Origin: Thermoplasmatota archaeon
GTDB taxonomy: Archaea > Thermoplasmatota > Poseidoniia > Poseidoniales > Thalassarchaeaceae
DNA: 51,295 bases
Direction: 5' to 3'
Assembly: GCA_036251765.1 (NCBI GenBank)
Contig: JAZANL010000021.1
Coordinates: 1 to 51,295 of the forward strand
The translations under genes were made by a program, and so were the position numbers. The first letter of the stretch is position 1; every line of letters begins with the position of its first letter. The notes beneath the pieces are model-generated. The model made no database searches. It was not told the origin of the DNA and saw only the letters and a program-made list of their open reading frames with translations. Below are positions 1,336 to 17,700 of this stretch, piece after piece.

Positions 1336-2019
1336 ATGCCATCGGACTCACTTCCCTGGGATGACCCTCTAATAGCACCACTCCTGGTGCTCTGGCTATA
1401 CCTGCCAGGATATCTTTCCAACACTGCAGCAATGCTGGGGGGTAAGTGGATACCAGATATGACGGGAATACCCGTTTTCACAATCGATGGAGGTAGGGTG
1501 ATGTCGGATGGGAACCGAGTTCTAGGTGATGGAAAGACTTGGAATGGACTAATTGGAGGGACCATAGGAGGTGGCCTTTTGGGCATCCTAACTCATTCAA
1601 TTGCCAATGGAAATACGGTTGACTCTGCTCCATTCCTTGATCCCCTCTCGACATATGGGACGAACTCCTCGGAGATCTCTGATGCGTGGTTCTACTTTGG
1701 AGGAGAATCGGTTACCGCATTCACAATCGGCTGTGTACTTGGATTGGGGTGCATGGTGGGTGACTCAGCAGGTTCTTTCGTAAAACGAAGACTCGGTCAC
1801 AAGAGGGAAGGAAGCGTCAGCTCGAAGGCCCCGTTGCTTGACACAATTCCATTCGCAGCCTCCGCTTTCGTCTTCGGGCAATTCCTGCTAGCACCATCTA
1901 TTGTGGGCAGTTCTGAACTATTGATGGGGATGGTACTCCTACTCTTTGCAACGCCAATTCTTCACAGGTCCTTCAATATCATTGGATATCGATTGGGACT
2001 CAAGTCAGTACCATACTAG
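1336..2019 (+). CDS. carS: CDP-archaeol synthase (CDP-2,3-bis-O-geranylgeranyl-sn-glycerol synthase)
   Basis: Motifs LPGYLSNTAAML, IDGG...GDGKTWNG, GDSAGSFVKRRLG and APLLD are typical of CarS/DUF46. Start moved to ATG 1336 because the upstream part of the ORF overlaps the opposite-strand gene. Confidence 0.88.
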   Translation: MPSDSLPWDDPLIAPLLVLWLYLPGYLSNTAAMLGGKWIPDMTGIPVFTIDGGRVMSDGNRVLGDGKTWNGLIGGTIGGGLLGILTHSIANGNTVDSAPFLDPLSTYGTNSSEISDAWFYFGGESVTAFTIGCVLGLGCMVGDSAGSFVKRRLGHKREGSVSSKAPLLDTIPFAASAFVFGQFLLAPSIVGSSELLMGMVLLLFATPILHRSFNIIGYRLGLKSVPY

Positions 2020-2068
2020 GCAACATCTCATGTGCAATCCATTATCACTAGAATAGGAAGCGCGAGTC

Positions 2069-3340
2069 ATGGCCGGAATGGAAGTATTGGTGGTTGGTTC
2101 CGGTGGCCGAGAACACGCATTGGCGCTAGGGCTATCTCAGAGTGACTCCGTTTCTTCAGTCCACTGCGCTCCTGGAAACGCTGGCACATCGATGGTAGCC
2201 ACCAATCACGATGTACAGGTTTCTGACATCGAGGGAATTGTAAGTCTAGCAAAGGAGTTGATGGTTTCCTTGGTTGTCGTTGGTCCCGAGGCACCACTAG
2301 TGAATGGACTATCAGATAGGCTAAGACAGGAATCAATCCCCAGCTTCGGACCTCATTCTGAGGGGGCAATTCTAGAGGGGTCCAAGACTCATGCAAAGAC
2401 TGTCATGGCGGCACTCGGAGTCCCAACAGGGAGATTTGAAAGAATTGACGAAATCGACTCAATAGGCGCCAGCTTGGAATCATTTGAACCTCCTTGGGTT
2501 ATCAAGAGGGACGTTCTTGCGGGAGGAAAGGGAGTAACTGTCACCTCCTCAAGAAGTGAGGCGTATGAAGCACTAAGAAGCGGAATTGAGACAGATGGTT
2601 TTGTCCTCATGGAAGAGCATCTTTCTGGAGAGGAGGCCTCAGTCCTAGTGATTATGGACGAGTCTGGTTATGTGATGCTTCCAGCAAGCCAGGACCACAA
2701 GAGAGTTGGGAATAATGACCAAGGACCAAACACCGGGGGGATGGGTGCATACGCTCCAGCCCCAGTCGCGACACCATCCGTATTGGCCAGGACAAGGGAA
2801 GAGATAGTAGAACCAATGCATCACCATCTGAGAAACTCGGAGACTCCCTATCGTGGTTGCCTATACGTTGGCCTGATGATCGATGAGGACGGAGCTCCTA
2901 GCGTTGTCGAGTTCAACGTGAGGCTTGGAGACCCCGAGGCTCAGGTGACTATCCCTCTGATTCAGACAGATTTGGGTCTTGTCCTGCTGGCAGCCTCACA
3001 GGGAGAACTCGCAGAAATCGAAGTCGAGTTCAAGAAATTCCACGCAACTACAGTAGTACTGGCATCGGAGGGTTACCCGGGTGACGTGATTTCTGAAAGG
3101 GTGATAGAAGGATGGGATGCAACAATAGAAGAGGGCCAATCTCTCGGTTTTGTCCATCTTGCCGGAGCGAAAAGAAACGACTCCGGAGAACTAATTTCAA
3201 CCGGAGGTAGAGTGCTATCTGCAACTGGAATTGCTCCTAGCCTAGTCGAGGCATTGGAGATCTCATACCAGATAATTGAGGGAATAAATTTGGAAGGTTC
3301 CCACTACAGGGAAGACATCGGTTTTCGCGCTCTTCCGTGA
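2069..3340 (+). CDS. purD: Phosphoribosylamine--glycine ligase
   Basis: VLVVGSGGREHAL, APGNAG, VVGPEAPL, LAGGKGV, QDHKR...GPNTGGMGAY, EFNVRLGDPE, GGRVL and YREDIG motifs. Confidence 0.97.
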   Translation: MAGMEVLVVGSGGREHALALGLSQSDSVSSVHCAPGNAGTSMVATNHDVQVSDIEGIVSLAKELMVSLVVVGPEAPLVNGLSDRLRQESIPSFGPHSEGAILEGSKTHAKTVMAALGVPTGRFERIDEIDSIGASLESFEPPWVIKRDVLAGGKGVTVTSSRSEAYEALRSGIETDGFVLMEEHLSGEEASVLVIMDESGYVMLPASQDHKRVGNNDQGPNTGGMGAYAPAPVATPSVLARTREEIVEPMHHHLRNSETPYRGCLYVGLMIDEDGAPSVVEFNVRLGDPEAQVTIPLIQTDLGLVLLAASQGELAEIEVEFKKFHATTVVLASEGYPGDVISERVIEGWDATIEEGQSLGFVHLAGAKRNDSGELISTGGRVLSATGIAPSLVEALEISYQIIEGINLEGSHYREDIGFRALP

Positions 3341-3390
3341 ACAAAATTCGCCTCAATCTCGGGGTTATCTTTCCAATCCGTTCTACGAAC

Positions 3391-3398
3391 GGTTAAAA
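3391..3398 (+). promoter_or_regulatory. Putative TATA-like promoter element (GGTTAAAA) upstream of giant aglB
   Basis: Starts 28 nt before ATG 3419; a similar GGTTNA motif lies before several other genes in the window. Confidence 0.4.
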
Positions 3399-3418
3399 CA
3401 AGCGTTTTGGTCGGCGCG

Positions 3419-6400
3419 ATGCTGAGTCATTGGCAAATAGGTCCGGTGGATGGGATGGAAGAGGGTAAAGAAAGTCTTCAAGTCGCCCAATTCAACAACC
3501 TAGTCGCCCCTTTGGCGATTACAATAGCACTTCTTGGTTTGACTATCGCAGCTTCTTCCTTTGAAGGCAGAGAAGTTGATGGGGATTTCCTCTCCGCTTC
3601 GATAATAATCTCGCTATCTGTTCTAATTCCAGCTTCCATGGGGAGGTCTTCGTTGCTAGTCCCTCTCGGTTCAGGAGCATTGCGCGTTTCCTCTATCACT
3701 CTCGCGGCCGCTCTCATAGGAATTATCGCTAATTCAGTTGCCCCAGAGCATTTCAACCACATGTTCGTATCCACATTCGTATTCGTCGCATTCGCCTCAG
3801 CAGCATTAAACGAATCAGAACGATTCGAGGAGTCTGCAAGTTTGCTATCGATAGTTCTGGGCATGAGACTAGCAGCATTCTATGCAGGAGGGCTACTAAT
3901 TGCCCAAAGCGACTCACTTTCAGTCATAGACACAGTCAGAGATTCCATCGGCTCCGCTTTCTTCTCATTCTGGCTTTCTTCAATATCACTAGGCTTCCTT
4001 GTGATGGTGTGTCTAAGGGGTTCGATCGAGAATAGGGGCAAAGGGAGGCTCATGGCCAATCTTCCAAACATCAGAGATAAACCAGAGGTTGGAATCTACT
4101 CTTCTCTAGTATTCGCTAGTTTCCTAGTCCCACTTCTCTGGATATGCCAGATTGATTCTATTCAGGAATATTCTCAGCAAAGTCACTTAGGAGTGGCATG
4201 GGCTTGTTTCACTGCGTTGGTCATTTTCATTCACGCATTCTTCAGGGCAGAGGGGTGGCATGTATTGGGTGCACTTCTGGCTGTGAACTGGACTCTTTAC
4301 ACAATTGGCCACATTCATGAGATCGGAAACGAACTACCATCATTATTCGCGGAGGACGGATTCATTGGCTCATTCACATGGTTCTTCCTGTGGTTTTGGA
4401 TGAACTTCTTCGCCATCTTCTTCGCATCCAGGGGGGTTTTCGGAGATATTGCGCCAAAGAGGGAGAGGAGCGGCTTCAGAGTTTGGTGGGACGTCAACTC
4501 CTATTCCGTGATGGTTGCACTTGCATTGTTGGTAGCTCTAATCGTTCGAACTGCATGGAACGTAATCCCGGCAATGAATGCAAACGGGACCGGGCTTTGG
4601 GATATGACCGGTGGTTCTGACCCATGGTACATGAAGAGGGTGGTCGACTATGTAATTGCCGAAAGAAGCCATCTGATTTTCGATCATGACAGGGCCTATC
4701 CAACAGGAGGAATCAATCCAAGGCCTCCACTCTTCTCTTGGTCTCTCGCCCTGGGAGGCTTGGCAATATCTTGGATTCTTGAGATTCCAGCTGATGAAGC
4801 GGTTTGGTGGTCCATGTCCGCCCTTCCAGCAATATACGGCGCACTGATTGTTCTTCCAATTGCTGGCATAGCTTCTCGCGCACACAGTAAGAGGGCAGGC
4901 ATAATTGCAGCTTGGTTGATAGCCCTAATGCCCGGCCACATGAGCCGCTCAACTTTCGCCATGTCGGATCACGACTCCTTCGCGATGCTTTTCCTAGCAA
5001 TCGCATTCTACTATTGGATTACGGCAATAGGGAAGATTGACCACAATAAACTCTTCAAGACAACTAGTACAAACCCGTTGTACATCCTCGCAGGAATGAG
5101 GGAGACATGGAAGAGGAACCCGTCATTGATGGCCAATGCGTCAATGGCTGGAGTAGCATTCTCAATCATGGCCCTTGGGTGGAAAGGATTCGTCTATGGT
5201 CCGGGAATACTATTCCTAGCTTATTCATTCCAAGTAGCGATTAACATATTCAAGGGAAGGGATAGCCTACAATTTACCTCTGCGGCTCTTCAAATGATGC
5301 TCGTGGCCATTCTGGTACCTGCTCCCTTCTACGCATGGCCAGGAATGAACCTACTCTTTGCCCCCAGTGGGATGCAGCCCATGTTCTACATAATCGGCTT
5401 CACATTTGCCGTGGGATGGGTGTCTAGCTCGTTCAGGGACAAGCCTTGGCTGTTGGTAGTGCTGGGTGGAAGCGCATTATTCGGCTCGATACTAGCCCTG
5501 CTATTCATTCTCCAGGAAGCACAGTTGTACAATGGCTGGGACATCCTCTTCACTGGCGGCTTCTACTTCTCAAAGAACAAGATATTCGGCACTATCGGTG
5601 AGGCCCAAGCCCCGGAGCGAGGAGTACTCTTTGCATCCTACGGGCCAATAGTGGCTCTCATCGCAATTTGCTGTGCATTCTTACTATTGTGGAGGGGCAG
5701 CAGGAAGAACAAGTCAGAATTGACCCTATTGGGGCTTTGGACCATTATTGCCACATACATGGCATGGTCAGCAGGACGTTTCATCATCAACGCCACTCCA
5801 GTAATGGCGGTAGTGGGCGGGATTGGAATTTCCATGCTGTGGGGGTCCGCAAGTTTGCCATCTTTCGCTAAGGTGTGGAGGAACTCAGGGATCGGGACCC
5901 CAAGGACCCGATTCAAGTCCCTATGGCCTGCCACCAAGGCTCGTCCCGGCGTCCCGGCCATGGTCATGGTACTGCTACTTATCACGTCTCAACACGCGAC
6001 TTATGGAATTGATGCGGGAATACCGAGAGGGGATCAATCTGCAAGTGAGATAGATCAGAGCCTATATGACATTGTTCCGGACATCTTGAGGCAGGACCTG
6101 CTGGGATTGTTTTCGGTAATGAATAGCGAACCCTACGATCAAAGCGACTCTGGATTATGGTACATGGGAACTTTCGGCCCCAGTTTCAATTCGCAGGGTT
6201 GGAATGAGGCATACGAATGGCTATCACAGCAGGATACCGAGACTCCATTCAGCGAACGTCCAGCTTTCGTCTCTTGGTGGGACTACGGTTTCCAAGCACT
6301 AGTTTCTGGGCAGCATCCTACGGTTGCAGACAACTTCCAGTCAGGAATCCCAAACAGCGGGGCAATGTTGCTCTCTGGAGGCCAGGAAGACACACTCTCG

Positions 6401-9400
6401 CTTTTCATTACAACACTGGCAATGGGCGACAAGAGCATCAATGGCCAACTTGGCGACTCCTTCATATCCGTTCTTAACAACACAATGTCCGAGGACCAGG
6501 TCAAGGAGTTTGAAGCCATTACTTCCAACAACAACAAGGAGTTCCTGCAACATCGCCTTATGGCTGTAGTTGCTGAATATGGCGGTGCAGAATTGCTCCA
6601 GGGCAATCCTCTGGACAGTAATGGGCTAACATGCTTAGACCCTTGTTTGGATACATATGTGGTATTGGTGAATGGGGAACAATTCGGGGAATCAACCACC
6701 AATTCAACAGAGGCAATGTCCCTCTTCGACCAAGCTCGTGGCTCATCATCCTCGTTTGAACTATCAGATTTCGATGAGGCAAGCCACTATGACATGGCTG
6801 GATACAGATATACAAGAGACATCATTGATGACTATGATGATCTCTCGACCGCACTCCACAGGACAAATGCTAGGTTCGGCATGGCCCGTGCATTCCTAAT
6901 CACCGCCTTCTCTCTGGAGGATCTTGTACAGATTTATGATGGAATCTCATCCATCGACTCGTACGAGGTCTCGGATTATGACCAATCCCATGGAAGTACA
7001 ACTTCGAGGAACCACGAGATTCGATACTTCGCAGTAGATAATCGCCTATTCCCACTAGGTGGAAAGTACTATCAGGACTATCAGTCGTATCACAGGGGCC
7101 AGACCACTGGAATCTTCCATGCTCCAACTCATCTATCTGGCCTTGACCTAGACTCTTACATTACTACAACTTACGAAACAAATCAAGGTCCAATGTCACC
7201 TGACGAGTTCCAAACCAGATACATGGAGGATCTGAAGGCTCAAGCCTCAGGAGCATCTACCGGGGAGGACATGATTCAGATGACGGACATGGACTACCAG
7301 CATCTCGACGGCTTCTTCGAAACTATGGTTGCTAGGACATACGTCGGTTATGGGACTTCCACGCTGGGACTGCCATCGATAAGTGGGCAAGAAGGCGATG
7401 CAGACACGCCCTCTACCTGGATTCTTCCAAATTCACTCACAGGGACTCCGGGAAGCTATTTGCAGGGCGCAATGGCACTTCCAGGAGCAATGATGAACCA
7501 CTTTGTACTATCCAACTGGTACGACCCCACAAATGGAACCTCCTGTGAGCAAATCCAGATTTCAGGCTCCGCATCAACAGTAGTTGGGACTCCAAAATTG
7601 TCTAGTGTCTCACTTTATTCAGAAGACAGCCTATCATCAGGGTGGTCTCAACTTCAATCAGGAGGCCCTTGGAAGGTGACCCAGGTGGAAGAAGGAGTCA
7701 TCCCCATTAATGCCTCGACAATAGATTATGACTCCGACGAAGAGACTCTATCACTCAGTTCAGACTCTCTTTCTTCCAGTAATGGCACCGAATTCACCCT
7801 TACTGGAAAGGCAGACAGGTACTGCGGTTCGATTTATGATTCTAACAGAAATGTCAAGATTCTGAAGTATTACAGCGGTGCTAAACTGGAGGGATCCGTC
7901 ACACTCGAGGGAGTTGGCCCGGTACCAAACGCACGGATACTCATAGAGAGAGATGCTTTCAGCGGAGATGAGTCAGCCGACGAAGACGGAAACGTAGTCG
8001 ATAACGACTCCAGAACATACTGGATACCCATCGGAAGCACTCAGGCGGACGAAGATGGCCACTACTCCTTCATCGCTCCAGCCGGAAAGATTCGTGTTTC
8101 TGCTTTCACAGGGGATCCAGACCTCGACTCCGCCAGAACATCTCTGCTCTCGGGTTCAGCCAACCAAATGTCTGAACTATTCTGCAACTCGGACGAACAA
8201 TGGAATCCTTACGTGGCCGATTGCCTCCCTATTGCAGCAGCAGGCTCTCGAACAGTCAATCCGGTAACTGGAATTCTTGGGGGCGTCTATGGGTCTACAT
8301 GGCTCTCTGAGACAATAGTGAACATTTCTGGCTCAGATGGTCACAGCAATGGCCAGTCCGTTATTGAGGCTCCAATATCTGTAACCCCATCAACCGCTTC
8401 AGGAATTCTCTCATGGACCGGAGAACTAGATTTTGACGGAGACCCAGTTGTCTCAGCAAATATCGTCCTCACGCCTTCCTCGGATGACGTGGTAATCCAG
8501 CCTTACGAGGTAATGACCTCTGATGGGAGCATGGTGGGTGAGGACTTGAGATTCACTGGAATTGGAGAGGTAACATTCCTTGGGGGCGGAACAGTTGAGA
8601 GCATGGGTGCAGTATCTGTTCACGACTTCACTGGCACACATACTCAAGCAGTTTTCGACAATCACAGCATTACCGGGGAAGGGCAATTCTCTGGAAAGGG
8701 GATACTTGATGGTACACTTTCAGGCGAGTTCCCAGATTGCTCTGGCCATATTGTCCCAGATGGTTCTGATGCATGCATGAACGAAGATGGAAACTATCTC
8801 TTGGACGGCGTAGCAAACGGATCTGGAAAGTTCACATCATATGGGGTCAGCGAGTTCACTAGGGAACTTTCACAGGCCACATTCATCGGTTCAGGAAACT
8901 TCGCCACGTCCCCTTCGAATGATCTTGACACCTTCGGGACAATAAATGGGACGGGAACCTTCTCTGGTCACGGAACCTTCAGTGGCCCGATGGTAAGACC
9001 AGGCTCATTCCACATAGTAGACGCACTCCCCGGCGAGTACTTGGTTTCGGTTGATTTCGGAACAGGAGATCCGGTGGAGCTAGCGAACCCATTCGTAATC
9101 CCCCTGACTCCTTCAGAAATTCAGACTCCAGTTTCAATTACTGGTGGGGCCGTCAAGGGAACCGTATCGATTTTCACAGGTAGGCCATTGTCGAGTGAGG
9201 TTTCGATTTTCTCGATCAATGGCTCCAGTGACGACTCCAATGAAGAGTGCGCTGGAGTAATCACTCAACCATGTTTCGTCATTCCCGACGAAAGCGGATC
9301 ATTCGAGGTTGGACCAATAGTGCCCGGGTCTTACCTAGCAGAGGTAGATATCGATGAAGACGGCTTCCCAGAGGTCTCACAGGCCTTTACTTTCGAATCC

Positions 9401-12400
9401 GGAATGGTATCTTTGGTTTCATTCCCTTCGGAGGTCCCTCAAACATCAGATATCACATTCACCCTCTTAGATGATGGAGTCAGTGTTGATGGACTCGATT
9501 TACAATTCACTCCCGAGGATCTTTCCAGAAGCGCAGTTTCATCAATTTTCGATAACGACTCAAAGACTTATCACGCCGAATTGGCCCCTGGGATTTGGAT
9601 ACTCAACTATACATTGAGTGATGAGAAGCAGCTGTGGCAGCGTGTTACTGTCGGGGATTTCGATATTACCGAGTCTTTCGATTTCTTGGTCAGTCAAGTT
9701 GTTACGGGTGTTGTGGTAGACAAACCCGCCAAGGGGGATGAGATTTCAGAACCAATTTCCAGAGTATCCAACCAGGAGGTTTTGTTCCAGTGGCAGGGAT
9801 TCACCCTGAAATCAACTACTGACTCATTCGGAGAATTTAGCGTGGTACTGCCTAGAGGGGCCTTTGTCCATGCGACCGTAGAGAGGATGGTAGGGGCAGG
9901 TGGCTTCTTCTCAAACGGCTCCAGCTTCCAAGTAACCGATACGATGGAGAACATCACAATCGAACTCACTGATTCAACAATGGTCCTCGGGGAAGTGAGC
10001 CTAAACCGCGAAGGGAACACGTACAACCAGGGGTTCTCTGGTTGGACTCCTGTTTTCGCAAAGGCAAACAACTTGGATGGAACTACAGACGCCGTCTGGA
10101 GGGAAGAGGTGGATGACCTCGGACGATTCGACATGCTACTACCTCTCGGGAACTGGTCTTTCACATTGGAGGCAGGAAACGAAATGTCCTCCAGCTCTGT
10201 TGTCAAGGAAGTAAACACCTCTTCCGAACCTATGGTCGAACTCCTGGTCCTTCCAACCAACAGTACCGTGGAGATAGATTTCTTCATCGATCATGAAGGA
10301 GATAACAACGCATCAAATGGGACTCCAGTCTCATATCCATTTGAGATTAAGCCCCTGACTCCAAATGGGGCCGGGTTATCCGTCTCAAGAGACGGCCCTG
10401 AGTGGACTCAAACAGGATTAGCAGAAGTTTCGTTAGAACCAGGCAGGTATCGAATAGTGGTTGAGAGGGCCAACTCCTCTGCAGACGAACCCTTCGATAC
10501 CCTGTACGACACAAACGAGATATTCGAAGTTGAGATCGGCTCTTCTACAGTCAAGCGATCCGTAGGTTTCGAGCCAAGATGGTTGCTTAACATCACATTG
10601 AGAAATGAGAGCGGTGAATTACTCAAGAATCATGAAGTAAAACTTGAATCGGCGGAAAATGGCTGGATACAAACTTTCACAACCAACGAAGATGGCATGT
10701 TGGTCGAGTACCTGGAGGAGGGGGACTGGATTGTAATTGTAGAAGAGTTCGAGACCAACACCGGAGTGTACGAGGGCCTCAGGAGAACTATTTCTGCTTC
10801 ACAATCATCTGCAGGATCACGTTTGAACTTCCAGACTGCCGAACTCGCTTCTGTGACCGTTACTCTCCAATCAACATCCGATGTTGCTGCACCGGAGTTG
10901 ATAGATCTAACGATATCTTCGCAGGAAGGTCTTGGATCATTCGTCAGCTCTATTGGAGGTTTAGATCAACCACTTGAAATCAGACTTGTTCCCGGCATGT
11001 GGAATGTTGAGATTAACCAGACCAATCAGGATGGAGTCAGGACGCTCCTGGAGAACACGTCATTGGTCGAATCCGGTGTCACCGTGGGTCCTGACCTGCA
11101 AGTTTTCCTGACAGTCCAGAAACTAGTCAGCGTCAGTGGAAAGGTATTCTGGGACTTGGACGATGACGGCTCTCCTGGTTTCTCGGAGGGACTCTCAAAT
11201 GCCTCGGTAAACATTACTGGTGACTTGGATTCTCCATCCCACCACCTAACCTCGGATGACGACGGCTTCTGGTCAACTTTCCTTCCCGCACAAAGCTCAT
11301 GGAATATTACTGTAGAGAGGGAAGGATTCGGCACAGAGACATCGGAAGTAGAAATTGGAGAAATCTCAGTAACCAATAACATCGAGATTTCAGCTGGTGA
11401 GGTAGAAATTACTGGCAGCATCTCATATCTCGACCAGACTTGTATTTCCAGTGGCGAGTGGCAAGTGCAGATGATCCCATCACATGGGATCTCTAGAGAG
11501 CGCATCACGGTATCCGGAAATTCCATGGGTGAGTGGTCAGTCATGATACAACCAGGTAGTTGGGTCGCTATGGCCACCTCTACATCCGAGGACTCTGACT
11601 GCGCAGACCTGATTTCGATAGAATCTATCGAAGTAGGGGTCGATGGTGGTTCGGTCGAATCAGAACTCACAGTCGGAGGTACACTAAGGCTCGAGACAAG
11701 TTGGTTGGACTTCGATGGCGACCCACACGATCTTACCGAGATTGATGATTATGACCTGGTCATAGAGTATGGTCAAATTTCATGGTCCGAGGAATTAGGA
11801 AGTGATGGGGTCCTGACACTATTGGTATTGCCTGGTACGGTACAAACCTCCAGTAGCTTCGAATTGGACGAGGGAGTTCGTAACGTTTCATACTCTGGGG
11901 GCAAGGGGATATCCATCAGAGCAGGGCAGGTAAGCCCGATGCACACTCTGAGCATCGATAGGGTCTCCAAGCAAAGCGTTGTTGCAACAGTCCTGGGACT
12001 TGAAAGAGTGGAGGTTCAAGAGGTCGATACCGCTTGTACCAATGACAACGACGGCGACGGCGTAATCAATGGAGATGATGCTTTCCCGAACGACCCTGAC
12101 GAATGGAACGACAACGATGGAGACGGTACCGGCGACAACGCCGACCCGGACGACGATCAAGACGGGGATCTTGACGAGGATGATGAATTCCCGATGGGGC
12201 AGGGCCTACCAACAAACTCCGCTGAGGGGTGCAAATACCAGAACGCAGCTTTCACACTCTCAATTGAGTATGAAGGGCACAACTCGTTCGACGAATATAC
12301 CGCCGTTGGAACGGTACCCGGTGCCGATGGTCTGGATTGGGATGTCCAATTCCAGAACTCATCCGGCGAATGGGTGAATTCCCTGACATTCGATTTGGGA

Positions 12401-13381
12401 TTAACAAATTCGGACATTAGTGAACAAATCAACGCCCGAGTCATCCCTGCCAATGTTGGTGTGGCACACCACTTCCCAGACGGACACATGGTCCTAATCA
12501 AGATGTCAACCGAACAAGGATACTCAACCCAGGTAGAGTTGAGGGTCGACGTGCCCGAATACAACGGGCTTGAGATCAGTGAACCAGAAAACGTGTTCTT
12601 CGATAGGGAGGAAACTGCAGTTACTCTCGAGATCCCGTTCAGGAACACCGGCAACTCGGACGAGTTGTTCTACTTCGAATTCGACAGTTCTGAGTGGTGG
12701 GAGTTTGCAGGCCCAACGACACAACCTGTGCCTCCGTTCTCCGATGGGACAGCGACCTTCACACTTGTTCGCGCATCTGAACCAGAACTGCCCGCATCAT
12801 ATGCTGAAGAAATTACCTTCACCGTTTATGATCAGGATAATAATTCGTACTCGGGCTCAACGGTAATGGAAACCGACTCCCCGGAACTTTCCATAGTGGG
12901 GGATTCGGCAAGGATTCTCGGAGGGAATCGATTCGCTTCCTTTGGTCAAGTAGAGAGTTATTCTGTCAACATTTCCAACGATGGTAACGTTGACGCCCAA
13001 GACGTGACCTTGGTGGCAACTCTGTGCTCCGACATCGCCTGTCAAAATGAGTTAGGGGTTAACTCCACATCAACCGAATCCGTCTCAGCAATGAGCGAGA
13101 CAACATTCTACATCTCAATGGATTACACCCAGTTTACCGAGGCAAAGACGTATTGGATAGTCTTCTCGATAGAGGGTGAAACGCTAGACGAGAAGTCGGA
13201 GTCTTGCACTTCCCCTAGATCAGAAGGAAAGCCATCCTGCGTGTTCGAGGCTCAGCTATGGACAAGCTCTGATGAGAATGACAGTCTGAAGTATCTGGCA
13301 TACGCATTCCTGATTATGCTGCTGGCAGCTCTCCTCTACTTTACCAGACGACCAGGTAGACGAGTCAGCGCCCCGTTCTAA
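3419..13381 (+). CDS. aglB: Giant AglB/STT3 oligosaccharyltransferase with extra N-terminal membrane domain, long Ig/carboxypeptidase-regulatory-like ectodomain, TSP3-type Ca repeat, CARDB-like domain and C-terminal TM anchor
   Basis: STT3 motifs SDPWY (~4616), DHD (4967), TIGE (5591), WWDYG (6275-6289) and ADNFQ. C-terminal hydrophobic helix followed by RRPGRR. Start uncertain (3407/3419/3455). Confidence 0.88.
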   Translation: MLSHWQIGPVDGMEEGKESLQVAQFNNLVAPLAITIALLGLTIAASSFEGREVDGDFLSASIIISLSVLIPASMGRSSLLVPLGSGALRVSSITLAAALIGIIANSVAPEHFNHMFVSTFVFVAFASAALNESERFEESASLLSIVLGMRLAAFYAGGLLIAQSDSLSVIDTVRDSIGSAFFSFWLSSISLGFLVMVCLRGSIENRGKGRLMANLPNIRDKPEVGIYSSLVFASFLVPLLWICQIDSIQEYSQQSHLGVAWACFTALVIFIHAFFRAEGWHVLGALLAVNWTLYTIGHIHEIGNELPSLFAEDGFIGSFTWFFLWFWMNFFAIFFASRGVFGDIAPKRERSGFRVWWDVNSYSVMVALALLVALIVRTAWNVIPAMNANGTGLWDMTGGSDPWYMKRVVDYVIAERSHLIFDHDRAYPTGGINPRPPLFSWSLALGGLAISWILEIPADEAVWWSMSALPAIYGALIVLPIAGIASRAHSKRAGIIAAWLIALMPGHMSRSTFAMSDHDSFAMLFLAIAFYYWITAIGKIDHNKLFKTTSTNPLYILAGMRETWKRNPSLMANASMAGVAFSIMALGWKGFVYGPGILFLAYSFQVAINIFKGRDSLQFTSAALQMMLVAILVPAPFYAWPGMNLLFAPSGMQPMFYIIGFTFAVGWVSSSFRDKPWLLVVLGGSALFGSILALLFILQEAQLYNGWDILFTGGFYFSKNKIFGTIGEAQAPERGVLFASYGPIVALIAICCAFLLLWRGSRKNKSELTLLGLWTIIATYMAWSAGRFIINATPVMAVVGGIGISMLWGSASLPSFAKVWRNSGIGTPRTRFKSLWPATKARPGVPAMVMVLLLITSQHATYGIDAGIPRGDQSASEIDQSLYDIVPDILRQDLLGLFSVMNSEPYDQSDSGLWYMGTFGPSFNSQGWNEAYEWLSQQDTETPFSERPAFVSWWDYGFQALVSGQHPTVADNFQSGIPNSGAMLLSGGQEDTLSLFITTLAMGDKSINGQLGDSFISVLNNTMSEDQVKEFEAITSNNNKEFLQHRLMAVVAEYGGAELLQGNPLDSNGLTCLDPCLDTYVVLVNGEQFGESTTNSTEAMSLFDQARGSSSSFELSDFDEASHYDMAGYRYTRDIIDDYDDLSTALHRTNARFGMARAFLITAFSLEDLVQIYDGISSIDSYEVSDYDQSHGSTTSRNHEIRYFAVDNRLFPLGGKYYQDYQSYHRGQTTGIFHAPTHLSGLDLDSYITTTYETNQGPMSPDEFQTRYMEDLKAQASGASTGEDMIQMTDMDYQHLDGFFETMVARTYVGYGTSTLGLPSISGQEGDADTPSTWILPNSLTGTPGSYLQGAMALPGAMMNHFVLSNWYDPTNGTSCEQIQISGSASTVVGTPKLSSVSLYSEDSLSSGWSQLQSGGPWKVTQVEEGVIPINASTIDYDSDEETLSLSSDSLSSSNGTEFTLTGKADRYCGSIYDSNRNVKILKYYSGAKLEGSVTLEGVGPVPNARILIERDAFSGDESADEDGNVVDNDSRTYWIPIGSTQADEDGHYSFIAPAGKIRVSAFTGDPDLDSARTSLLSGSANQMSELFCNSDEQWNPYVADCLPIAAAGSRTVNPVTGILGGVYGSTWLSETIVNISGSDGHSNGQSVIEAPISVTPSTASGILSWTGELDFDGDPVVSANIVLTPSSDDVVIQPYEVMTSDGSMVGEDLRFTGIGEVTFLGGGTVESMGAVSVHDFTGTHTQAVFDNHSITGEGQFSGKGILDGTLSGEFPDCSGHIVPDGSDACMNEDGNYLLDGVANGSGKFTSYGVSEFTRELSQATFIGSGNFATSPSNDLDTFGTINGTGTFSGHGTFSGPMVRPGSFHIVDALPGEYLVSVDFGTGDPVELANPFVIPLTPSEIQTPVSITGGAVKGTVSIFTGRPLSSEVSIFSINGSSDDSNEECAGVITQPCFVIPDESGSFEVGPIVPGSYLAEVDIDEDGFPEVSQAFTFESGMVSLVSFPSEVPQTSDITFTLLDDGVSVDGLDLQFTPEDLSRSAVSSIFDNDSKTYHAELAPGIWILNYTLSDEKQLWQRVTVGDFDITESFDFLVSQVVTGVVVDKPAKGDEISEPISRVSNQEVLFQWQGFTLKSTTDSFGEFSVVLPRGAFVHATVERMVGAGGFFSNGSSFQVTDTMENITIELTDSTMVLGEVSLNREGNTYNQGFSGWTPVFAKANNLDGTTDAVWREEVDDLGRFDMLLPLGNWSFTLEAGNEMSSSSVVKEVNTSSEPMVELLVLPTNSTVEIDFFIDHEGDNNASNGTPVSYPFEIKPLTPNGAGLSVSRDGPEWTQTGLAEVSLEPGRYRIVVERANSSADEPFDTLYDTNEIFEVEIGSSTVKRSVGFEPRWLLNITLRNESGELLKNHEVKLESAENGWIQTFTTNEDGMLVEYLEEGDWIVIVEEFETNTGVYEGLRRTISASQSSAGSRLNFQTAELASVTVTLQSTSDVAAPELIDLTISSQEGLGSFVSSIGGLDQPLEIRLVPGMWNVEINQTNQDGVRTLLENTSLVESGVTVGPDLQVFLTVQKLVSVSGKVFWDLDDDGSPGFSEGLSNASVNITGDLDSPSHHLTSDDDGFWSTFLPAQSSWNITVEREGFGTETSEVEIGEISVTNNIEISAGEVEITGSISYLDQTCISSGEWQVQMIPSHGISRERITVSGNSMGEWSVMIQPGSWVAMATSTSEDSDCADLISIESIEVGVDGGSVESELTVGGTLRLETSWLDFDGDPHDLTEIDDYDLVIEYGQISWSEELGSDGVLTLLVLPGTVQTSSSFELDEGVRNVSYSGGKGISIRAGQVSPMHTLSIDRVSKQSVVATVLGLERVEVQEVDTACTNDNDGDGVINGDDAFPNDPDEWNDNDGDGTGDNADPDDDQDGDLDEDDEFPMGQGLPTNSAEGCKYQNAAFTLSIEYEGHNSFDEYTAVGTVPGADGLDWDVQFQNSSGEWVNSLTFDLGLTNSDISEQINARVIPANVGVAHHFPDGHMVLIKMSTEQGYSTQVELRVDVPEYNGLEISEPENVFFDREETAVTLEIPFRNTGNSDELFYFEFDSSEWWEFAGPTTQPVPPFSDGTATFTLVRASEPELPASYAEEITFTVYDQDNNSYSGSTVMETDSPELSIVGDSARILGGNRFASFGQVESYSVNISNDGNVDAQDVTLVATLCSDIACQNELGVNSTSTESVSAMSETTFYISMDYTQFTEAKTYWIVFSIEGETLDEKSESCTSPRSEGKPSCVFEAQLWTSSDENDSLKYLAYAFLIMLLAALLYFTRRPGRRVSAPF
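12040..12193 (+). repeat. Thrombospondin type-3-like Ca-binding repeats inside AglB
   Basis: NDNDGDGVINGDDAFPNDPDEWNDNDGDGTGDNADPDDDQDGDLDEDDEFP. Confidence 0.8.
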
Positions 13382-13414
13382 TACTACTTGTCACAGCGCA
13401 CACTGGTAGCCATC

Positions 13415-14653
13415 ATGCGTGGAGTCTCGCGTTTCGAACTGATGCCCGAGCCAGAGGACCCCAGTCTACTTACGGCAGTGGACATAGATGCTCCAGGATA
13501 TCCAGGAGAAGCTTATGGCACCACTGACGAAGACGCTAGGATGCAAAGGCGAACTATGGGCCTAATAATGAGATTCTTATGGCCATGGGGTGCAGTAGGA
13601 TTCTCCGCAATAGTCGTCTCCATCCTCCTACTCTACCCCTCGATTTATTCCTTGATCGGGGAGGTACTGGATTCCGAGTGGGCCTTCGAAGATAGCGGCA
13701 TCAGGGATCTGCAAGAGGGCGGTAACCTGGGCGAGGGAGTAAGAGTGTGCATGGTAGACACCGGAATCGACATCTCCCATCCAGACCTATCCCACCTCAC
13801 TCTGTCCGGGTTCCGTGATTTCTATAGCGAACAAGAGGCCATTCGGGATATCGGGACAAATAGTCATGGGACTTTGATGGCAGGACTTCTCGCTGCGAAT
13901 GGGTCATTCATCGGTGCTGCTCCCGAGGTTTCACTTTCCATCGCTATTTCTCTTGGCCCGGATGGAAAGTCTGCAAATGAGCGGATGGTCTCACAAGCGA
14001 TTAGGTGGTGTAGAATTTCCCAGGATTCTGACATCATTTCCCTAAGCCTAGGAACATCTCCCGGCTCTGTCTTCTCGCCATCATCTGATACCCTTGATGC
14101 CGTTAGGGAGGCATTGGAAGATGGAATTTTCGTGATTGCAGCTGCCGGAAACCGCGACCCGCAACAGAACTTTTCTGATGTCTCATCCCCTGCTAGTCTA
14201 TCGGGCGTTATCGCCGTTGGGGCCCATGATAGGAATGGCGACCCATGGGCCGACAGTGCGGTGGGTGCAAAAGTAGATCCAGAAACCGGGGAGGAACGAA
14301 GATTCCCCAATCAGAAACCGGAGATTACGGCCCCAGGAGTTGACCTATGGTCTTGCAGAGACAGTGACAGAGACCCTCCATACGCATTCTCAACGGGTAC
14401 TAGCGACTCTACGGTATTGGTTACAGGCGCACTGGCCTTGATACTCTCTGAATACAAGGGCCAAATAGCAGGAGAAAACGGAATTATCGATCAACATGAG
14501 ATGGACTTGATCAAGGTTGCACTTGCAAACTCGGCCCAGACCGAACAACAATCTGAAACTCACGACCCGAAGAAGGGATACGGCCTCTTAGATGCCAAAG
14601 AATGGTCTAGACAAGTAGAAATTGAATTTGGAATCGGGCAAGATAACAGTTGA
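13415..14653 (+). CDS. Membrane-anchored S8 (subtilisin-like) serine peptidase
   Basis: Triad motifs VDTG, HGTLMAG and GTSD; oxyanion AAGN; KPEITAPG; one N-terminal TM. Start 13415 (ATG) or 13388 (TTG). Confidence 0.88.
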   Translation: MRGVSRFELMPEPEDPSLLTAVDIDAPGYPGEAYGTTDEDARMQRRTMGLIMRFLWPWGAVGFSAIVVSILLLYPSIYSLIGEVLDSEWAFEDSGIRDLQEGGNLGEGVRVCMVDTGIDISHPDLSHLTLSGFRDFYSEQEAIRDIGTNSHGTLMAGLLAANGSFIGAAPEVSLSIAISLGPDGKSANERMVSQAIRWCRISQDSDIISLSLGTSPGSVFSPSSDTLDAVREALEDGIFVIAAAGNRDPQQNFSDVSSPASLSGVIAVGAHDRNGDPWADSAVGAKVDPETGEERRFPNQKPEITAPGVDLWSCRDSDRDPPYAFSTGTSDSTVLVTGALALILSEYKGQIAGENGIIDQHEMDLIKVALANSAQTEQQSETHDPKKGYGLLDAKEWSRQVEIEFGIGQDNS

Positions 14654-14687
14654 ATCCGCGATAATTGACTAAACCCGTTGGCCCTAT

Positions 14688-14695
14688 GGTTAAAT
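14688..14695 (+). promoter_or_regulatory. Putative TATA-like element (GGTTAAAT)
   Basis: Starts 32 nt upstream of ATG 14720; same motif class as at 3391. Confidence 0.4.
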
Positions 14696-14719
14696 TGTCT
14701 AGATGTAGTCCGATGGATT

Positions 14720-17700
14720 ATGGCGCGGGAGGAAAAATTGCGGTCAATCTCCTTAACGGGCCTATTCATGTTTAGCATATTACTTTCATTGGCCTTGCCA
14801 GCTGGAACTGTTTCCGCTTCAAATGAGACGACCACGGGGACGATTACCGGTACTGAGACTTGGGCAGGCGTACATACCCTGACCGGAGACGTCACAATAG
14901 CACCAGGTGCCAAATTAATCATCAATCCAGGAGCCACGATTGAGTTCCCAAACGGTACGCATCTGGACGTAAGGGGAAGCCTGTGTGCCGGCGTCTCTTC
15001 ATGCGGGGCATCCTCCAACGCAGGCCCTGCAATGAGAATAACCCTGAGATGGAGCGAACCCCTCAATTCTAGTGCAACTGGAGAATGCTATGGCATGAGC
15101 GCAGGAAACCAAGAGATATGGATAGACGATCCCTCATGCAGCGAGGGAGTCCTCATGAGAAGCTCCATAGATCTCTCCGAAACAGGTCTGAGATACGTCA
15201 CATTCGATAGCGCATGGGGAATACCCCAGTACGTCTCTGCAGTGGGTGAATTTCGCTACGGCGCTCTCGTTCTAGATGGTGCCAGTCCAACCCTTACCGA
15301 ACTCTCATTCAACCAGATTAACACCTCAAGCGTCTTGACAACAAACCTCGCCCAACCGACTTTCAATGGAGGGGAATTCGTTGTGGGGGCCGATGCAAGC
15401 ACTAGCATAGTTGGAGCAGCACTGCAGATTTACTCATCTGGGTCATCAGTTAGCCCATTCACTCTTTCTGATATCACGCTGACCGGCACGAACAACGGAT
15501 GCGGAAATAGGGATGGTGGAAGGCATACAATTTGGGCCGAGGACTCATTTATCGAGATTGACAACGCCGACATTTCATCAGGAGACTTCGGAATAGGCCT
15601 CTGGACATCTGCCGGCAGCGTCACTAACACGCAAATAAATGTGAATTGTAACGGCATCGATCTCAATGGAAAGAAGGCAGTAGGAGGGACCTCGTTCAGC
15701 TTTGATCTCTCCGACAATGAGATAATTACTGCTGAGGGGGCTGGAGTTTTTGCATCAGCAGGGGCATTGGTCTCGTTGACAAACAGCGAAATCAGCGGTG
15801 CTTCATCAGGCTCCGGAATTGCGGTTTACAATAGCGAGGCACATATTCACGAAAACGAAATCGGGCCAATAGGTGGTTACTTCGGGTTATGGCTAGGTGG
15901 CTCGTACGATGTAATAGCCGAAAATAACTCGATCTTTGACACCACACTGACTCCAGTCGTGGCTGGAATGTACTCATACGCCATTCAAGCCGCTTCAAGG
16001 CTATACCTGGCCAACAACTCAATCTCATACGATGGAACTGGCACCTGCAGCAGCGATACAAATTGGGGAGGGCAGTTTTCTTGTCCCGTGCTGCATGCAT
16101 ACGTCACAGGAGTGACGATGTATGACAACATCATCACCGCCGGTGGTACTGCTGATGGGATTAGGGCAGTGGGCTCGTTGTTAGATATTCAGAGAAATTC
16201 ATTCGACGTTCAGAAGACCGGTGCCGTGATCAAGAATTACGATAGCGGTTACGCAGAGTCGCAACAATTCGGCTCTCTCGCATACTTCTCTGAGAACGAC
16301 TGGAACCAAGCCGAGACAGTATACAATGTGACTAAAAGCTCAGTAACAGCCCAATCCGAGTATATCCCATCTCCTCCCAGTGGCGAATATCCTGTTCGGC
16401 TATCTTGGCCAGATCAGGAGGCATGGCCTGACAATGAATTCCAGGGTGCGATAATTCCTACCCCTGTCAAGGACTGCAACAACTGCCAGAACATGACGCC
16501 TCGGAACTTCCCGTTGGGTGTCAGCATGGATAACAACTCAACAGTTTTCACATTTGCAGATTTGACAAATCTGGACCTGTCTAAAGTCAAGATAGCAACA
16601 CAACCAACCCATTTCGCAGTACAGGTCAGCAGAGCGGAACTAGTTAGGTTCCAGACACTGATCGGCGGTGAAAAGGTAAGCGATGCATTGGTAATTGTAG
16701 AGGATGCACTGGGTAATGACCTATATCGAGTCAATACTGGTGGTGACGGATTCACTCCTTGGATAGCCCTTCCTTCAAACTTCCACCTAGACTTTAGAGG
16801 CCTAGGAGGAGGAGACAACCCCGATGGATTTGCAGATGATGAGTATGAAGACTCTTGCTCAGATGGGATTGACAACGATGGCGATCTAACTATTGACACA
16901 GCAGATTCCAGTTGCAACTATTCTGCAGGTACCAGGGAACTATCGCTCTACAGATATACCGCCTATAGATTTGGATACGGATACTACTCAGGACAGTTCA
17001 CCCTTGAGGAGAGCTCTCTGGAGGAGACTGCCCATCTGGAGAACGAGGCTCCAACTGTGATAGTCACTGAGAATGAAGGGCACTCATTCAGAAGGGTCGT
17101 AAACATCACCGGCAGCGCTCATGATGGAACATTGGCTAATAGCTACCTGACCGATGAACGGGCCCAATGGGACCAAGGAGGATATGTTCATGCGGTACAA
17201 GTTAGGAATCCATTCACAGGTTCTTGGGAGGATGCAGAATACGCCGTCGATACAAGCGGTGCGGACGAGGGTTCGGTAACTCGATTCAACAGGCCATTCA
17301 GCTCTTGGTACTACAGCATTGACATGAGCGGCCTTGCAGGGGAAGGAGATTACATATTCGAATTCAGAGCCTTTGACGGGATCGACTACAGTCCAGTGGT
17401 TACAAGGTCAATCAAACTCAACACCCAACCACCCAGCATTTTCGTAACCACGCCTAGTTCATTCTCCTCGCACGACGAAGGCTCTGTAGCCTTCGATGGG
17501 TACTCCCAGGACCCATATGGGTGTCCCGACAACTGCAATACCGACATAGGATTGGTGTACATGCAGATTTCAGGACCAAATTATCAAGTCACCAGCCCAG
17601 TGGAAACCAACTCCGATGGTACTTGGAATTGGGAATGGGACTTCAGCACCCGGCCCAGGGAACTAACAACATACACATTTACAATATGGGCATCGGATTC

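What the first reader, a model, noticed from the sequence alone, without database searches (positions are those of the whole stretch)
3419..13381. 3320-aa AglB whose ectodomain is re-anchored at the C-terminus
Seen: intact STT3 catalytic motifs (DPWY, DHD, TIGE, WWDYG at about aa 957), then ~2300 more residues of tandem beta-sandwich repeats, a Ca repeat, a CARDB-like domain and a terminal TM + RRPGRR. Known: characterised AglB/PglB/STT3 enzymes are roughly 600-1000 aa with a free C-terminal domain. Inference: the enzyme is fused to a doubly tethered scaffold that may capture substrates, replace accessory OST subunits or itself be an envelope component. Long AglBs may already be annotated in Thermoplasmata, but I know of no functional explanation.
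Basis: partly seen in the sequence, partly recalled or inferred. Interest (0 to 1): 0.72.

Follow-up and report, generated by a model that had tools for sequence, protein, structure and literature searches.

The report
Giant doubly anchored archaeal glycosylation enzyme
This is a real 3,320-residue version of AglB, the enzyme that attaches sugars to archaeal surface proteins, in a marine group II archaeon; the normal catalytic core sits between an unknown ten-helix membrane module and a long chain of beta-sandwich domains that re-enters the membrane, and I found no paper describing this design.

Summary
Window 3419-13381 (+) is one uninterrupted 3,320-aa frame with intact STT3/AglB motifs, an all-beta ectodomain and a last TM helix plus basic tail. 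It is not a misassembly. The same 3,000-3,500-aa frame is present in 40 of 41 related genomes, and contigs from independent DNA and RNA libraries bridge its junctions.

- The STT3 core starts only at aa 364. In front lies a 10-helix membrane module with no sequence or fold relative, confined to this order (56 of 56 genomes; 0 of 24 in sister families).
- The "Ca repeat" is a recent insertion, seen in 2 of 33 relatives.
- The C-terminal anchor is general: 26 of 26 complete giant AglBs (over 2,000 aa) sampled across Thermoplasmatota have it, and 0 of 9 medium-sized ones do.

New here: in this order the protein always ends in Phe (33 of 33 genomes; 113 of 113 database proteins end in PF).

Function is inferred. 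The likeliest role is a built-in, fixed-length accessory and envelope scaffold around the cell's only oligosaccharyltransferase.

This scan has reported the same architecture on other genomes at least 15 times. Databases hold hundreds of copies under generic names, and six literature searches found no description.

The parts
3419..13381 (+). Whole gene: 3,320-aa AglB/STT3 fusion protein with its stop codon. An alternative start at Met13 (3455) gives the 3,308-aa form held in the public collection.
3419..4507 (+). N-terminal module, aa 1-363. It has ten predicted TM helices (aa 29-337, nt 3503-4429) and then a K/R-rich cytoplasmic linker. It is specific to this order and has no known family or fold.
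   Evidence: KD scan. AF2 pLDDT 85.8, pTM 0.83. No Pfam or NCBIfam hit. 36 phmmer hits in 1.84 billion representatives, all giant AglBs or fragments of them. Foldseek found nothing at E<=0.001. VIA best Z 7.5, generic helical. hhalign against the STT3 TM domain gave probability 0.13%.
4508..5908 (+). STT3 membrane domain, aa 364-830, with DPWY (4619-4630), DHD (4967-4975) and TIGE (5591-5602).
   Evidence: Pfam STT3 at 399-801. TIGR04154 at 364-986. Alignment to 3waj. D401, D517/H518/D519, T725 and E728 are invariant in 13 of 13 sequences. Motif positions.
5909..7318 (+). Extracellular catalytic part and proximal domains, aa 831-1300, with WWDYG at aa 953-957 (6275-6289).
   Evidence: Collinear matches to giants outside the order up to about aa 1330.
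7319..9778 (+). Middle ectodomain, aa 1301-2120, not modelled. It gives weak CarboxypepD_reg and DUF4198 (beta-sandwich) hits. About aa 1380-1500 is a lineage-variable, Ser-rich insertion. Aa 1500-1900 is as conserved as the core.
9779..12037 (+). Modelled chain of beta-sandwich domains, aa 2121-2873. It includes the CarboxypepD_reg domain at 2590-2650, which carries a conserved DxDxDG-type motif at about aa 2579.
12038..12226 (+). D-rich TSP3-like 'Ca repeat', aa 2874-2936. It is a recent insertion and has low confidence in the model.
   Evidence: present in 2 of 33 sequences
12227..13282 (+). Distal beta-sandwich domains, aa 2937-3288, including two DUF11/CARDB-like domains with invariant N-x-G-N motifs.
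13283..13345 (+). C-terminal TM helix, aa 3289-3309: the second membrane anchor.
   Evidence: Conserved in 26 of 26 complete giant AglBs sampled.
13346..13378 (+). Short basic cytoplasmic tail RRPGRRVSAPF, ending in an invariant Phe.
   Evidence: F invariant in 33 of 33; 113 of 113 end in PF; the only such ending in the own genome
13388..14653 (+). Neighbour gene, 6 nt downstream: a 421-aa S8 subtilase with one N-terminal TM helix. It follows AglB in all 13 loci of the order that were examined.

Best explanation
SHOWN
- One intact gene encodes the only STT3-family enzyme found in this genome.
- The protein has three parts.
  (1) aa 1-363: an order-specific bundle of ten TM helices, of unknown family.
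  (2) aa 364 to about 1330: a canonical AglB core with every catalytic motif conserved.
  (3) about aa 1330-3288: a collinear, fixed-length chain of beta-sandwich domains, closed by a TM helix and a short basic tail.
- The modelled 1,100 residues hold roughly 10-12 beta-sandwich domains.

INFERRED FROM TOPOLOGY
STT3 places its C-terminal domain outside the cell. The ten extra helices keep that parity, and the K/R-rich linker and tail lie inside. The roughly 2,450 extracellular residues would therefore form an arch or loop tethered to the membrane at both ends.

INFERRED FUNCTION
- The core transfers the lipid-linked glycan to Asn in sequons, as other AglBs do.
- The arch is a built-in non-catalytic accessory and envelope scaffold. 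It would hold the active site in a defined space above the membrane, is probably N-glycosylated itself, and may organise or form part of the surface coat.
- In this it would play in cis the kind of role that single-TM, beta-sandwich accessory subunits play for eukaryotic STT3.
- The N-module would be a membrane adaptor, for example for the lipid-linked donor, the translocon or the C-terminal anchor.
For: Reality of the gene:
- Open frame.
- The same frame in 40 of 41 genomes of the order and matches in 146 of 151 genomes of the class.
- The stretch is held by runs of 13 studies.
- Contigs of two DNA runs and two metatranscriptomic libraries cover 1000-19500 without indels or joints. Single RNA-library contigs span 3649-5307 and 5739-8997.
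- One STT3 match in the own genome.
- A preprint lists the oligosaccharyltransferase among genes with higher transcript abundance in a Poseidoniales MAG (10.1101/2020.09.16.299958, passages read).

Catalysis: motifs aligned to 3waj and invariant in 13 of 13 sequences.

Arch:
- All-beta model plus terminal helix.
- Tandem beta-sandwich matches.
- C-terminal TM plus basic tail in 18 of 18 complete giants and 8 of 8.
- No such anchor in the 9 of 9 medium AglBs (1,033-1,646 aa).

Fixed architecture:
- The ectodomain aligns end to end across three families with few gaps.
- Aa 1500-1900 is 40-50% identical, like the core.
- Weak collinear matches to giants outside the order.

Self-glycosylation is plausible: 32 sequons in aa 1301-3289 against 18 expected from composition, while other surface proteins of the window sit at expectation.

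N-module:
- 10 helices, confident model.
- Always fused and single-copy in 56 of 56 genomes of the order.
Against: - No experiment and no structure of the whole protein. The arch geometry, the self-glycosylation and any scaffold role are inferences.
- Aa 1301-2120 was not modelled.
- Sequon enrichment is modest, about 1.75-fold.
- RNA-library contigs do not prove transcription, because DNA can be present in such libraries (warning).
- The own genome is 84.6% complete, so a second OST cannot be excluded.
- Nine medium-sized Thermoplasmatota AglBs work without the second anchor, so the arch is not needed for catalysis as such.
- No structural match links any arch domain specifically to ribophorin- or OST48-type subunits. 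The top Foldseek rows are generic.
Confidence: 0.45

Rival explanations
1. Polyprotein reading. The fusion is a precursor. After co-translational self-glycosylation, the membrane-anchored S8 subtilase encoded 6 nt downstream cuts the ectodomain from the core. This releases a separate, C-terminally anchored surface glycoprotein (S-layer-like or coat protein) beside a normal-sized AglB.
For: - The subtilase follows AglB in 13 of 13 loci of the order, at 38-86% identity.
- The subtilase has one N-terminal TM helix and an outward-facing S8 domain.
- The tail is enriched in sequons.
- Many archaeal S-layer glycoproteins are anchored by a C-terminal TM helix (own knowledge).
Against: - No cleavage site or linker is evident. 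Conservation is continuous across the core-to-tail boundary.
- No subtilase match in the 7 loci outside the order, though these had only short downstream flanks, while the anchored tail is present there.
- Earlier scan notes judged this gene block a conserved neighbourhood rather than a machine (unchecked notes).
Confidence: 0.15
2. Closed-clasp reading. The order-specific N-module and the order-specific tail ending in Phe are partners. The C-terminal helix and tail dock on the N-module, at conserved charged residues on its cytoplasmic face, and close the ectodomain into a ring beside the active site.
For: - Both features are confined to the same order. N-module: 56 of 56 genomes against 0 of 24 in sister families. 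Terminal Phe: 33 of 33 in the order against 0 of 14 giants outside it.
- Nearly invariant E137, R200 and E278 lie at predicted helix ends facing the cytoplasm.
- No other protein of the genome has this ending.
Against: The co-occurrence is a single evolutionary event, so it is weak evidence. No direct evidence of contact exists.
Confidence: 0.1
3. Adhesin or capture reading. The ectodomain is an adhesin or substrate-capture arm, for particles, polymers or secreted proteins, that merely shares a polypeptide with AglB.
For: - Tandem beta-sandwich arrays are typical of adhesins (Foldseek rows).
- Relatives carry the Pfam families SdrD_B, SpaA, Big_1 and DUF11.
- The D-rich Ca-type insertion shows that the arm can acquire new modules.
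Against: - Domain number and order are fixed across an order, and the length varies by only a few percent.
- Both ends are anchored, so there is no free tip.
- No recognisable lectin or binding head was found.
Confidence: 0.1
4. Artefact: two or three genes fused by misassembly or by a sequencing error.
For: None found. One relative (G026) has a frame break.
Against: - The same frame in 40 of 41 genomes, across the class, and in 113 C-terminally complete database proteins.
- Independent contigs bridge all junctions.
- The G026 break is a frameshift at about aa 1549, not at a module boundary.
Confidence: 0.01

Closest known systems
Archaeoglobus fulgidus AglB-L (PDB 3WAJ, 3WAK, 5GMY, 7E9S; 875 aa) and other characterised AglB/PglB/STT3 catalytic subunits
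   Same: - The STT3 membrane domain.
- The acidic motif after TM1 (DPWY), the DH(D) motif, TIxE and WWDYG, aligned residue by residue.
- It is the sole catalytic OST subunit found in the genome.
   Different: - Solved chains are 696-935 aa and end in a free globular domain (lengths).
- This protein has 363 extra residues with ten helices in front, and about 2,000 extra residues plus a second TM anchor behind.
- Sequence similarity is low (E 3.9e-10), and it scores far below the TIGR04154 cut-off (164.9 against 450).
Giant (2,000-2,850 aa) doubly anchored AglBs of other Thermoplasmatota. Examples carry the source names Aciduliprofundum sp. MAR08-339 'putative membrane protein, required for N-linked glycosylation', Methanomassiliicoccales, Thermoplasmata and Ca. 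Saliniplasma.
   Same: - Core plus beta-sandwich chain plus C-terminal TM and basic tail.
- Weak collinear similarity in the arm.
   Different: They lack the 10-helix N-module (0 of 24 in the sister families; WWDYG at aa 567-925 instead of about 950). They do not end in Phe (0 of 14), and they are about 800-1,200 aa shorter.
Accessory subunits of the eukaryotic OST complex (ribophorin I/Ost1, OST48/Wbp1, ribophorin II/Swp1). This comparison is from my own knowledge and was not tested here.
   Same: Lumenal or extracellular beta-sandwich domains held beside STT3 by a single C-terminal TM helix and a short cytosolic tail.
   Different: They are separate polypeptides and far shorter. No specific sequence or fold match was found here, so this is an analogy only.
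C-terminally anchored archaeal surface (S-layer) glycoproteins and PGF-CTERM/archaeosortase substrates
   Same: A large glycosylatable ectodomain followed by a TM helix and a basic tail.
   Different: There is no PGF motif and no sorting-domain model hit on the last 60 aa. The protein is fused to an enzyme at its other end.

Membership tests
STT3/AglB oligosaccharyltransferase (GT66) | STT3 membrane-domain profile match above the curated cut-off | tested here: met
   PF02516 at aa 399-801, 43 bits against 24.5. In the genome search, 45.3 bits, over the cut-off.
STT3/AglB oligosaccharyltransferase (GT66) | First acidic residue in the loop after TM1 (D in G-x-D-P-W-Y) | tested here: met
   GGSDPWY aligns to GGNDPWY of 3waj. 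D401 is invariant in 13 of 13 (A5 D38).
STT3/AglB oligosaccharyltransferase (GT66) | Second acidic motif (DxD / DxH type) | tested here: met
   SDHD at 516-519 aligns to NDHH of 3waj. D517/H518/D519 are invariant.
STT3/AglB oligosaccharyltransferase (GT66) | TIxE/SVSE motif in the long external loop (motif name recalled, from no call) | tested here: met
   TIGE at 725-728. T725 and E728 are invariant in 13 of 13 (A5 T362, E365).
STT3/AglB oligosaccharyltransferase (GT66) | WWDYG motif in the extracellular domain | tested here: met
   aa 953-957, aligned to the WWDYG of 3waj. Present in 12 of 12 complete ORFs of the order.
STT3/AglB oligosaccharyltransferase (GT66) | DK or MI motif after WWDYG (recalled) | not tested
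   No structure-based alignment of aa 960-1100 was made.
STT3/AglB oligosaccharyltransferase (GT66) | Transfer of a lipid-linked glycan to Asn | not testable with these tools
   Needs an enzyme assay.
TIGR04154 'oligosaccharyl transferase, archaeosortase A system-associated' | Score at or above the curated cut-off of 450 bits | tested here: not met
   164.9 bits over aa 364-986. It is therefore a relative of this subfamily, not a member.
PGF-CTERM or other archaeosortase/exosortase sorting signal | Signature motif plus TM plus basic tail recognised by a sorting-domain model | tested here: not met
   No NCBIfam hit on the last 60 aa at E<=10. There is no PGF motif in ...SLKYLAYAFLIMLLAALLYFTRRPGRRVSAPF.
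PGF-CTERM or other archaeosortase/exosortase sorting signal | An archaeosortase in the genome | tested here: inconclusive
   PF09721 was not found in G000, which is 84.6% complete. The control rang in only 1 of 14 control genomes, so the model is insensitive.
TSP3-type calcium-binding repeats | Profile match to the TSP3 repeat | tested here: inconclusive
   No PF18884 hit. NF047638 at E 0.025, 13.5 bits. Three DxDxDG motifs at about aa 2876-2911.
CARDB / DUF11 beta-sandwich domains | Profile match above the cut-off | tested here: inconclusive
   DUF11 E 0.22-0.25, DUF7507 E 0.02, TIGR01451 E 0.03, all below their cut-offs. The region is beta-sandwich in the model.
CarboxypepD_reg-like (transthyretin-like) beta-sandwich | Profile match above the cut-off | tested here: met
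   PF13620 at aa 2590-2650, 38.2 bits against 32.3. Further sub-threshold copies at about 1491-1562 and 2393-2441.

The most novel reading that the evidence does not exclude
The giant AglB is not just an enzyme with decoration but a self-glycosylating envelope-building machine. Its roughly 2,000-residue arm would be the cell's own coat or spacer element. The arm would either stay as a closed loop, clasped by the order-specific N-module and the invariant Phe tail, or be cut free by the co-conserved membrane subtilase. If so, the most abundant planktonic archaea would build part of their surface from their oligosaccharyltransferase gene.
Probability: 0.12. Interest if true: 0.85.

Novelty: new variant of a known kind. 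Interest (0 to 1): 0.62.

Why it matters
AglB is treated as a single-subunit enzyme of about 600-1,000 residues with a free C-terminal domain. Here a whole phylum carries a form two to three times larger with a second membrane anchor. That phylum includes Marine Group II, one of the most abundant archaeal groups of the surface ocean, and cultured genera such as Aciduliprofundum.

The form is fixed in architecture and is apparently the only OST of the cell. This suggests that archaeal N-glycosylation can have built-in accessory parts, which bears on how the multi-subunit eukaryotic OST arose.

It also points to an unstudied component of the envelope of uncultured marine archaea. The order-specific 10-helix module and the invariant terminal Phe are concrete handles for experiments.

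Tried and rejected
- Complex prediction, aa 1-830 (alignment A3) against the last 60 aa (A4): score 0.00 in both runs and the controls were not run. This gives no verdict either way.
- Protein Atlas look-up of the N-module: best score 0.81, to unnamed archaeal clusters of 410-422 aa. This is below the level that means anything.
- Free-standing N-module. The only hit of about the right length (P0130, 359 aa) ends in an adapter-like artefact and is a truncated AglB. The profile search found no copy outside the AglB frame.
- N-module as a diverged duplicate of the STT3 membrane domain: hhalign probability 0.13%.
- Fold of the N-module. Foldseek found nothing at E<=0.001. VIA-align gave a best Z of 7.5, to soluble prenyl-diphosphate synthases, and Z 6.2 to a small human OST subunit chain. 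Both are within the range of chance for helical bundles.
- The terminal ...PF tail as a general sorting tag. Of 34 frames in the genome with a C-terminal TM and basic tail, only AglB ends this way.
- Pfam on 300-aa slices of the ectodomain gave only sub-threshold beta-sandwich families.
- Depth in the laid runs cannot rank expression, because the runs are contigs only.
- Literature. Six searches found no paper on a giant or doubly anchored AglB in the held library: AglB + Thermoplasmat + oligosaccharyltransferase; AglB + Marine Group II; oligosaccharyltransferase + Poseidoniales; AglB + Thermoplasma acidophilum; a six-term search on architecture; STT3 + Marine Group II. Subscription-only papers, such as phylogenetic surveys of AglB, were not searchable.
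- The 'small partner gene' reported by earlier scan notes for relatives outside the order was not tested here. My loci there had flanks that were too short.
Full report
**The observation**

Window 3419-13378 (+) is one frame of 3,320 codons without a stop. GC content is even across it. The public protein collection holds the same gene called from Met13, at 3,308 aa.

- DPWY 401-404
- DHD 517-519
- TIGE 725-728
- WWDYG 953-957

Family and structure matches agree:
- Pfam STT3 matches aa 399-801 above its cut-off.
- NCBIfam TIGR04154 matches aa 364-986, but far below its cut-off: 164.9 against 450 bits.
- The closest solved structure by sequence is A. fulgidus AglB-L (3waj/5gmy, E 3.9e-10), with DPWY, the DH motif and WWDYG aligned.

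The gene lies in an archaeal genome. Its neighbours include CDP-archaeol synthase, PurD, archaeal-type S15, GluRS and PheRS. Close homologues are named by their sources as Candidatus Poseidoniales or uncultured marine group II/III.

**Not a misassembly**

A search with aa 364-1300 found a match in 40 of 41 related genomes: three families and six genera of one order. The open frames are nearly always 3,000-3,540 aa. Shorter frames lie on short or cut contigs, and the one genome without a match is 62% complete.

At class level 146 of 151 genomes match. Frames are about 3,100-3,300 aa in the order and about 2,300-2,390 aa in two sister families.

One complete genome (G026) shows 1,603 + 1,646 aa. 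This is a frameshift at about aa 1549, in the middle of the ectodomain, and both halves are 93-94% identical to a sister species. It is not a natural split at a module boundary.

The stretch is held by runs of 13 studies. Contigs of two DNA runs and two metatranscriptomic libraries, laid on 1000-19500, show no indels or joints. Single RNA-library contigs span 3649-5307 (N-module into core), 5739-8997 (core into arm) and 8561-18709. Such contigs show presence in RNA libraries, not proof of transcription.

A preprint on Poseidoniales metatranscriptomes lists 'oligosaccharyltransferase' among genes with higher transcript abundance in one genus (10.1101/2020.09.16.299958, passages read).

Only one STT3-family match exists in the own genome, which is 84.6% complete.

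The STT3 profile begins at aa 364. Before it a hydropathy scan finds eight to ten extra TM peaks.

An AlphaFold2 model built on 31 sequences is confident (pLDDT 85.8, pTM 0.83). It shows ten long helices between aa 29 and 337. Ten helices keep the N-in topology that STT3's first helix needs, and the linker (aa 338-364) is rich in K and R.

The module has no recognisable relative:
- No Pfam or NCBIfam hit.
- phmmer against 1.84 billion representatives found 36 proteins, all giant AglBs or fragments of them. The one 359-aa 'stand-alone' hit ends in an adapter-like artefact.
- A profile of the module found it once per genome, always inside the AglB frame, in 56 of 56 other genomes of the order (f1 19/19, f3 37/37). 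It was found in 0 of 24 genomes of the sister families. The third family of the order (f2) has it by tblastn.
- Foldseek found nothing at E<=0.001.
- VIA-align's best Z was 7.5, to soluble helical enzymes, which is within chance for helical bundles.
- It is not a recognisable duplicate of the STT3 membrane domain (hhalign probability 0.13%).

Nearly invariant E137, R200 and E278 sit at predicted cytoplasmic helix ends.

**The ectodomain**

The model of aa 2121-3320 (33 sequences, pLDDT 82.1) is all-beta, with 77 strands. It has one low-confidence stretch at aa 2874-2936, then a helix at 3289-3309 and a disordered tail. Foldseek returns tandem beta-sandwich proteins such as alpha-2-macroglobulins, ciliary Ig arrays and a bacterial 'grappling hook' neck. 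TM-scores are very low, so this is a shared building block and not a shared architecture.

One CarboxypepD_reg domain passes Pfam's cut-off (aa 2590-2650). Slices give further sub-threshold CarboxypepD_reg, DUF4198 and DUF11/DUF7507 hits. Relatives carry SdrD_B, SpaA, Big_1, DUF11 and similar families.

From 77 strands I estimate 10-12 domains in the modelled 1,100 residues. The 820 residues at 1301-2120 were not modelled.

Across 13 full-length sequences of three families the arm aligns end to end with few gaps. Aa 1500-1900 is as conserved as the core, at 40-50% identity. This is a fixed architecture, unlike the variable repeat numbers of adhesins.

Two segments are lineage-variable:
- a Ser-rich stretch at about aa 1380-1500;
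- the D-rich 'Ca repeat', which occurs in the window and only 1 of the 32 relatives compared.

Sequons are moderately enriched in the arm: 32 against 18 expected. Other surface proteins of the window are at expectation.

**The second anchor**

A C-terminal TM helix with a basic tail was present in all complete giants I fetched.

| Group | With C-terminal TM |
|---|---|
| Giants of the order | 12 of 12 |
| Giants outside the order | 6 of 6, then 8 of 8 |
| Medium AglBs (1,033-1,646 aa) of the same phylum | 0 of 9 |

Rows left out: L028 was cut at a contig end and L024 is the frameshifted gene. In one search, three loci were dropped because their longest frame was not the AglB.

So the phylum has two classes: medium with a free end, and giant with two anchors. 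Named giants include an Aciduliprofundum strain, Methanomassiliicoccales, Thermoplasmata and Ca. Saliniplasma. They are annotated variously as STT3, 'carboxypeptidase regulatory-like domain-containing protein', 'glycosyltransferase family 39' or 'peptide transporter'.

**A new detail: the invariant terminal Phe**

In the window's order the last residue is Phe in 33 of 33 genomes, with endings APF, TPF, MPF, QPF, RF, KF, SF and AF. All 113 C-terminally complete database homologues among the best 120 end in PF. None of the 14 giants outside the order ends in Phe.

In the own genome, 34 frames have a C-terminal TM and basic tail, but only AglB ends this way. The last 60 aa hit no sorting-signal model. 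So the ending is a family-specific cytoplasmic feature, not a general tag.

It appears in the same lineage as the N-module. That suggests, but does not show, that the two interact. A complex prediction gave no verdict.

**Neighbourhood**

Six bases downstream lies a 421-aa S8 subtilase with one N-terminal TM helix. It follows AglB in 13 of 13 loci of the order. Its best NCBIfam similarity is to mycosin-type proteases, below the cut-off.

Earlier scan notes describe the same block (AglB, subtilase, beta-helix protein, STAND-type regulator) as a conserved neighbourhood.

**How it most likely works**

Shown: the architecture, its conservation, intact catalytic motifs, and a single OST gene.

Inferred from the established STT3 topology: about 2,450 residues lie outside the cell and are tethered at both ends, that is, an arch or loop.

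Inferred function (confidence about 0.45): the core glycosylates as any AglB does. The arm is a built-in accessory or envelope scaffold of fixed length, probably itself glycosylated. The N-module is a membrane adaptor.

Rivals:
- cleavage by the subtilase into an enzyme and a separate anchored coat protein (0.15);
- a closed clasp between the N-module and the Phe tail (0.10);
- an adhesin or capture arm (0.10);
- an artefact (0.01).

**Comparison and novelty**

The protein meets every sequence criterion of the STT3/AglB family that I could test, but not the TIGR04154 subfamily threshold. It differs from all characterised members in size, in the N-module and in the second anchor.

Six literature searches found no description. 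Subscription-only surveys of AglB could not be searched.

The scan itself has reported this architecture on other genomes at least 15 times. I re-derived the main points independently. I add the giant-versus-medium anchor dichotomy, the invariant terminal Phe, and the recent origin of the Ca repeat.

I rate it a new variant of a known kind, interest 0.62.

Noticed in passing
window 13388-14653 (+): A membrane-anchored S8 subtilase lies 6 nt after AglB and is conserved in that position in 13 of 13 loci of the order (38-86% identity). Its best NCBIfam similarity is to type VII secretion mycosin (116.7 bits, below the cut-off). Its role relative to AglB is unknown.
   Followed up: partly
own genome G000, contigs C57 and C26 (C-termini listed): Two proteins end in PGF-CTERM-like signals (…PGFIPGF… and …LPGF…, then a TM helix and a basic tail). 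However, Pfam Exosortase_EpsH found no archaeosortase in the 84.6%-complete genome. The control shows that this model is insensitive.
   Followed up: partly
L024 (G026:C1:1439000-1450900): In a one-contig, 96%-complete relative the AglB frame is broken by a frameshift at about aa 1549, while both halves stay 93-94% identical to a sister species. This is a sequencing error or a very recent lesion.
   Followed up: yes
P0130, P0144 (database proteins): Public predicted proteins that look like free-standing N-modules end in adapter-like translations (…LLYTSPSPRD, …SYTHLTLPTTPYV). They are truncated artefacts, not separate genes.
   Followed up: yes
L025, L026 (family f2 of the order): In this family WWDYG lies at aa 1125-1169 rather than about 950, so the N-terminal part carries roughly 150-200 further residues in front of the shared module.
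   Followed up: no
window 14678-19000, 22543-28272, 46072-50838 (+): Three further large secreted proteins: one of 1,440 aa with a beta-helix, one of 1,909 aa with TSP3 repeats, and one of 1,588 aa with S8 subtilase, CARDB and NPCBM_assoc domains. None has a C-terminal TM anchor. The TSP3 repeats of the 1,909-aa protein resemble the D-rich insertion in AglB and might be its source.
   Followed up: no
window 19033-21582 (+): An 849-aa protein with an HTH, an AAA_16 ATPase domain and TPR repeats (STAND-like regulator), with no sequons at all. Earlier scan notes say it belongs to the conserved block.
   Followed up: no
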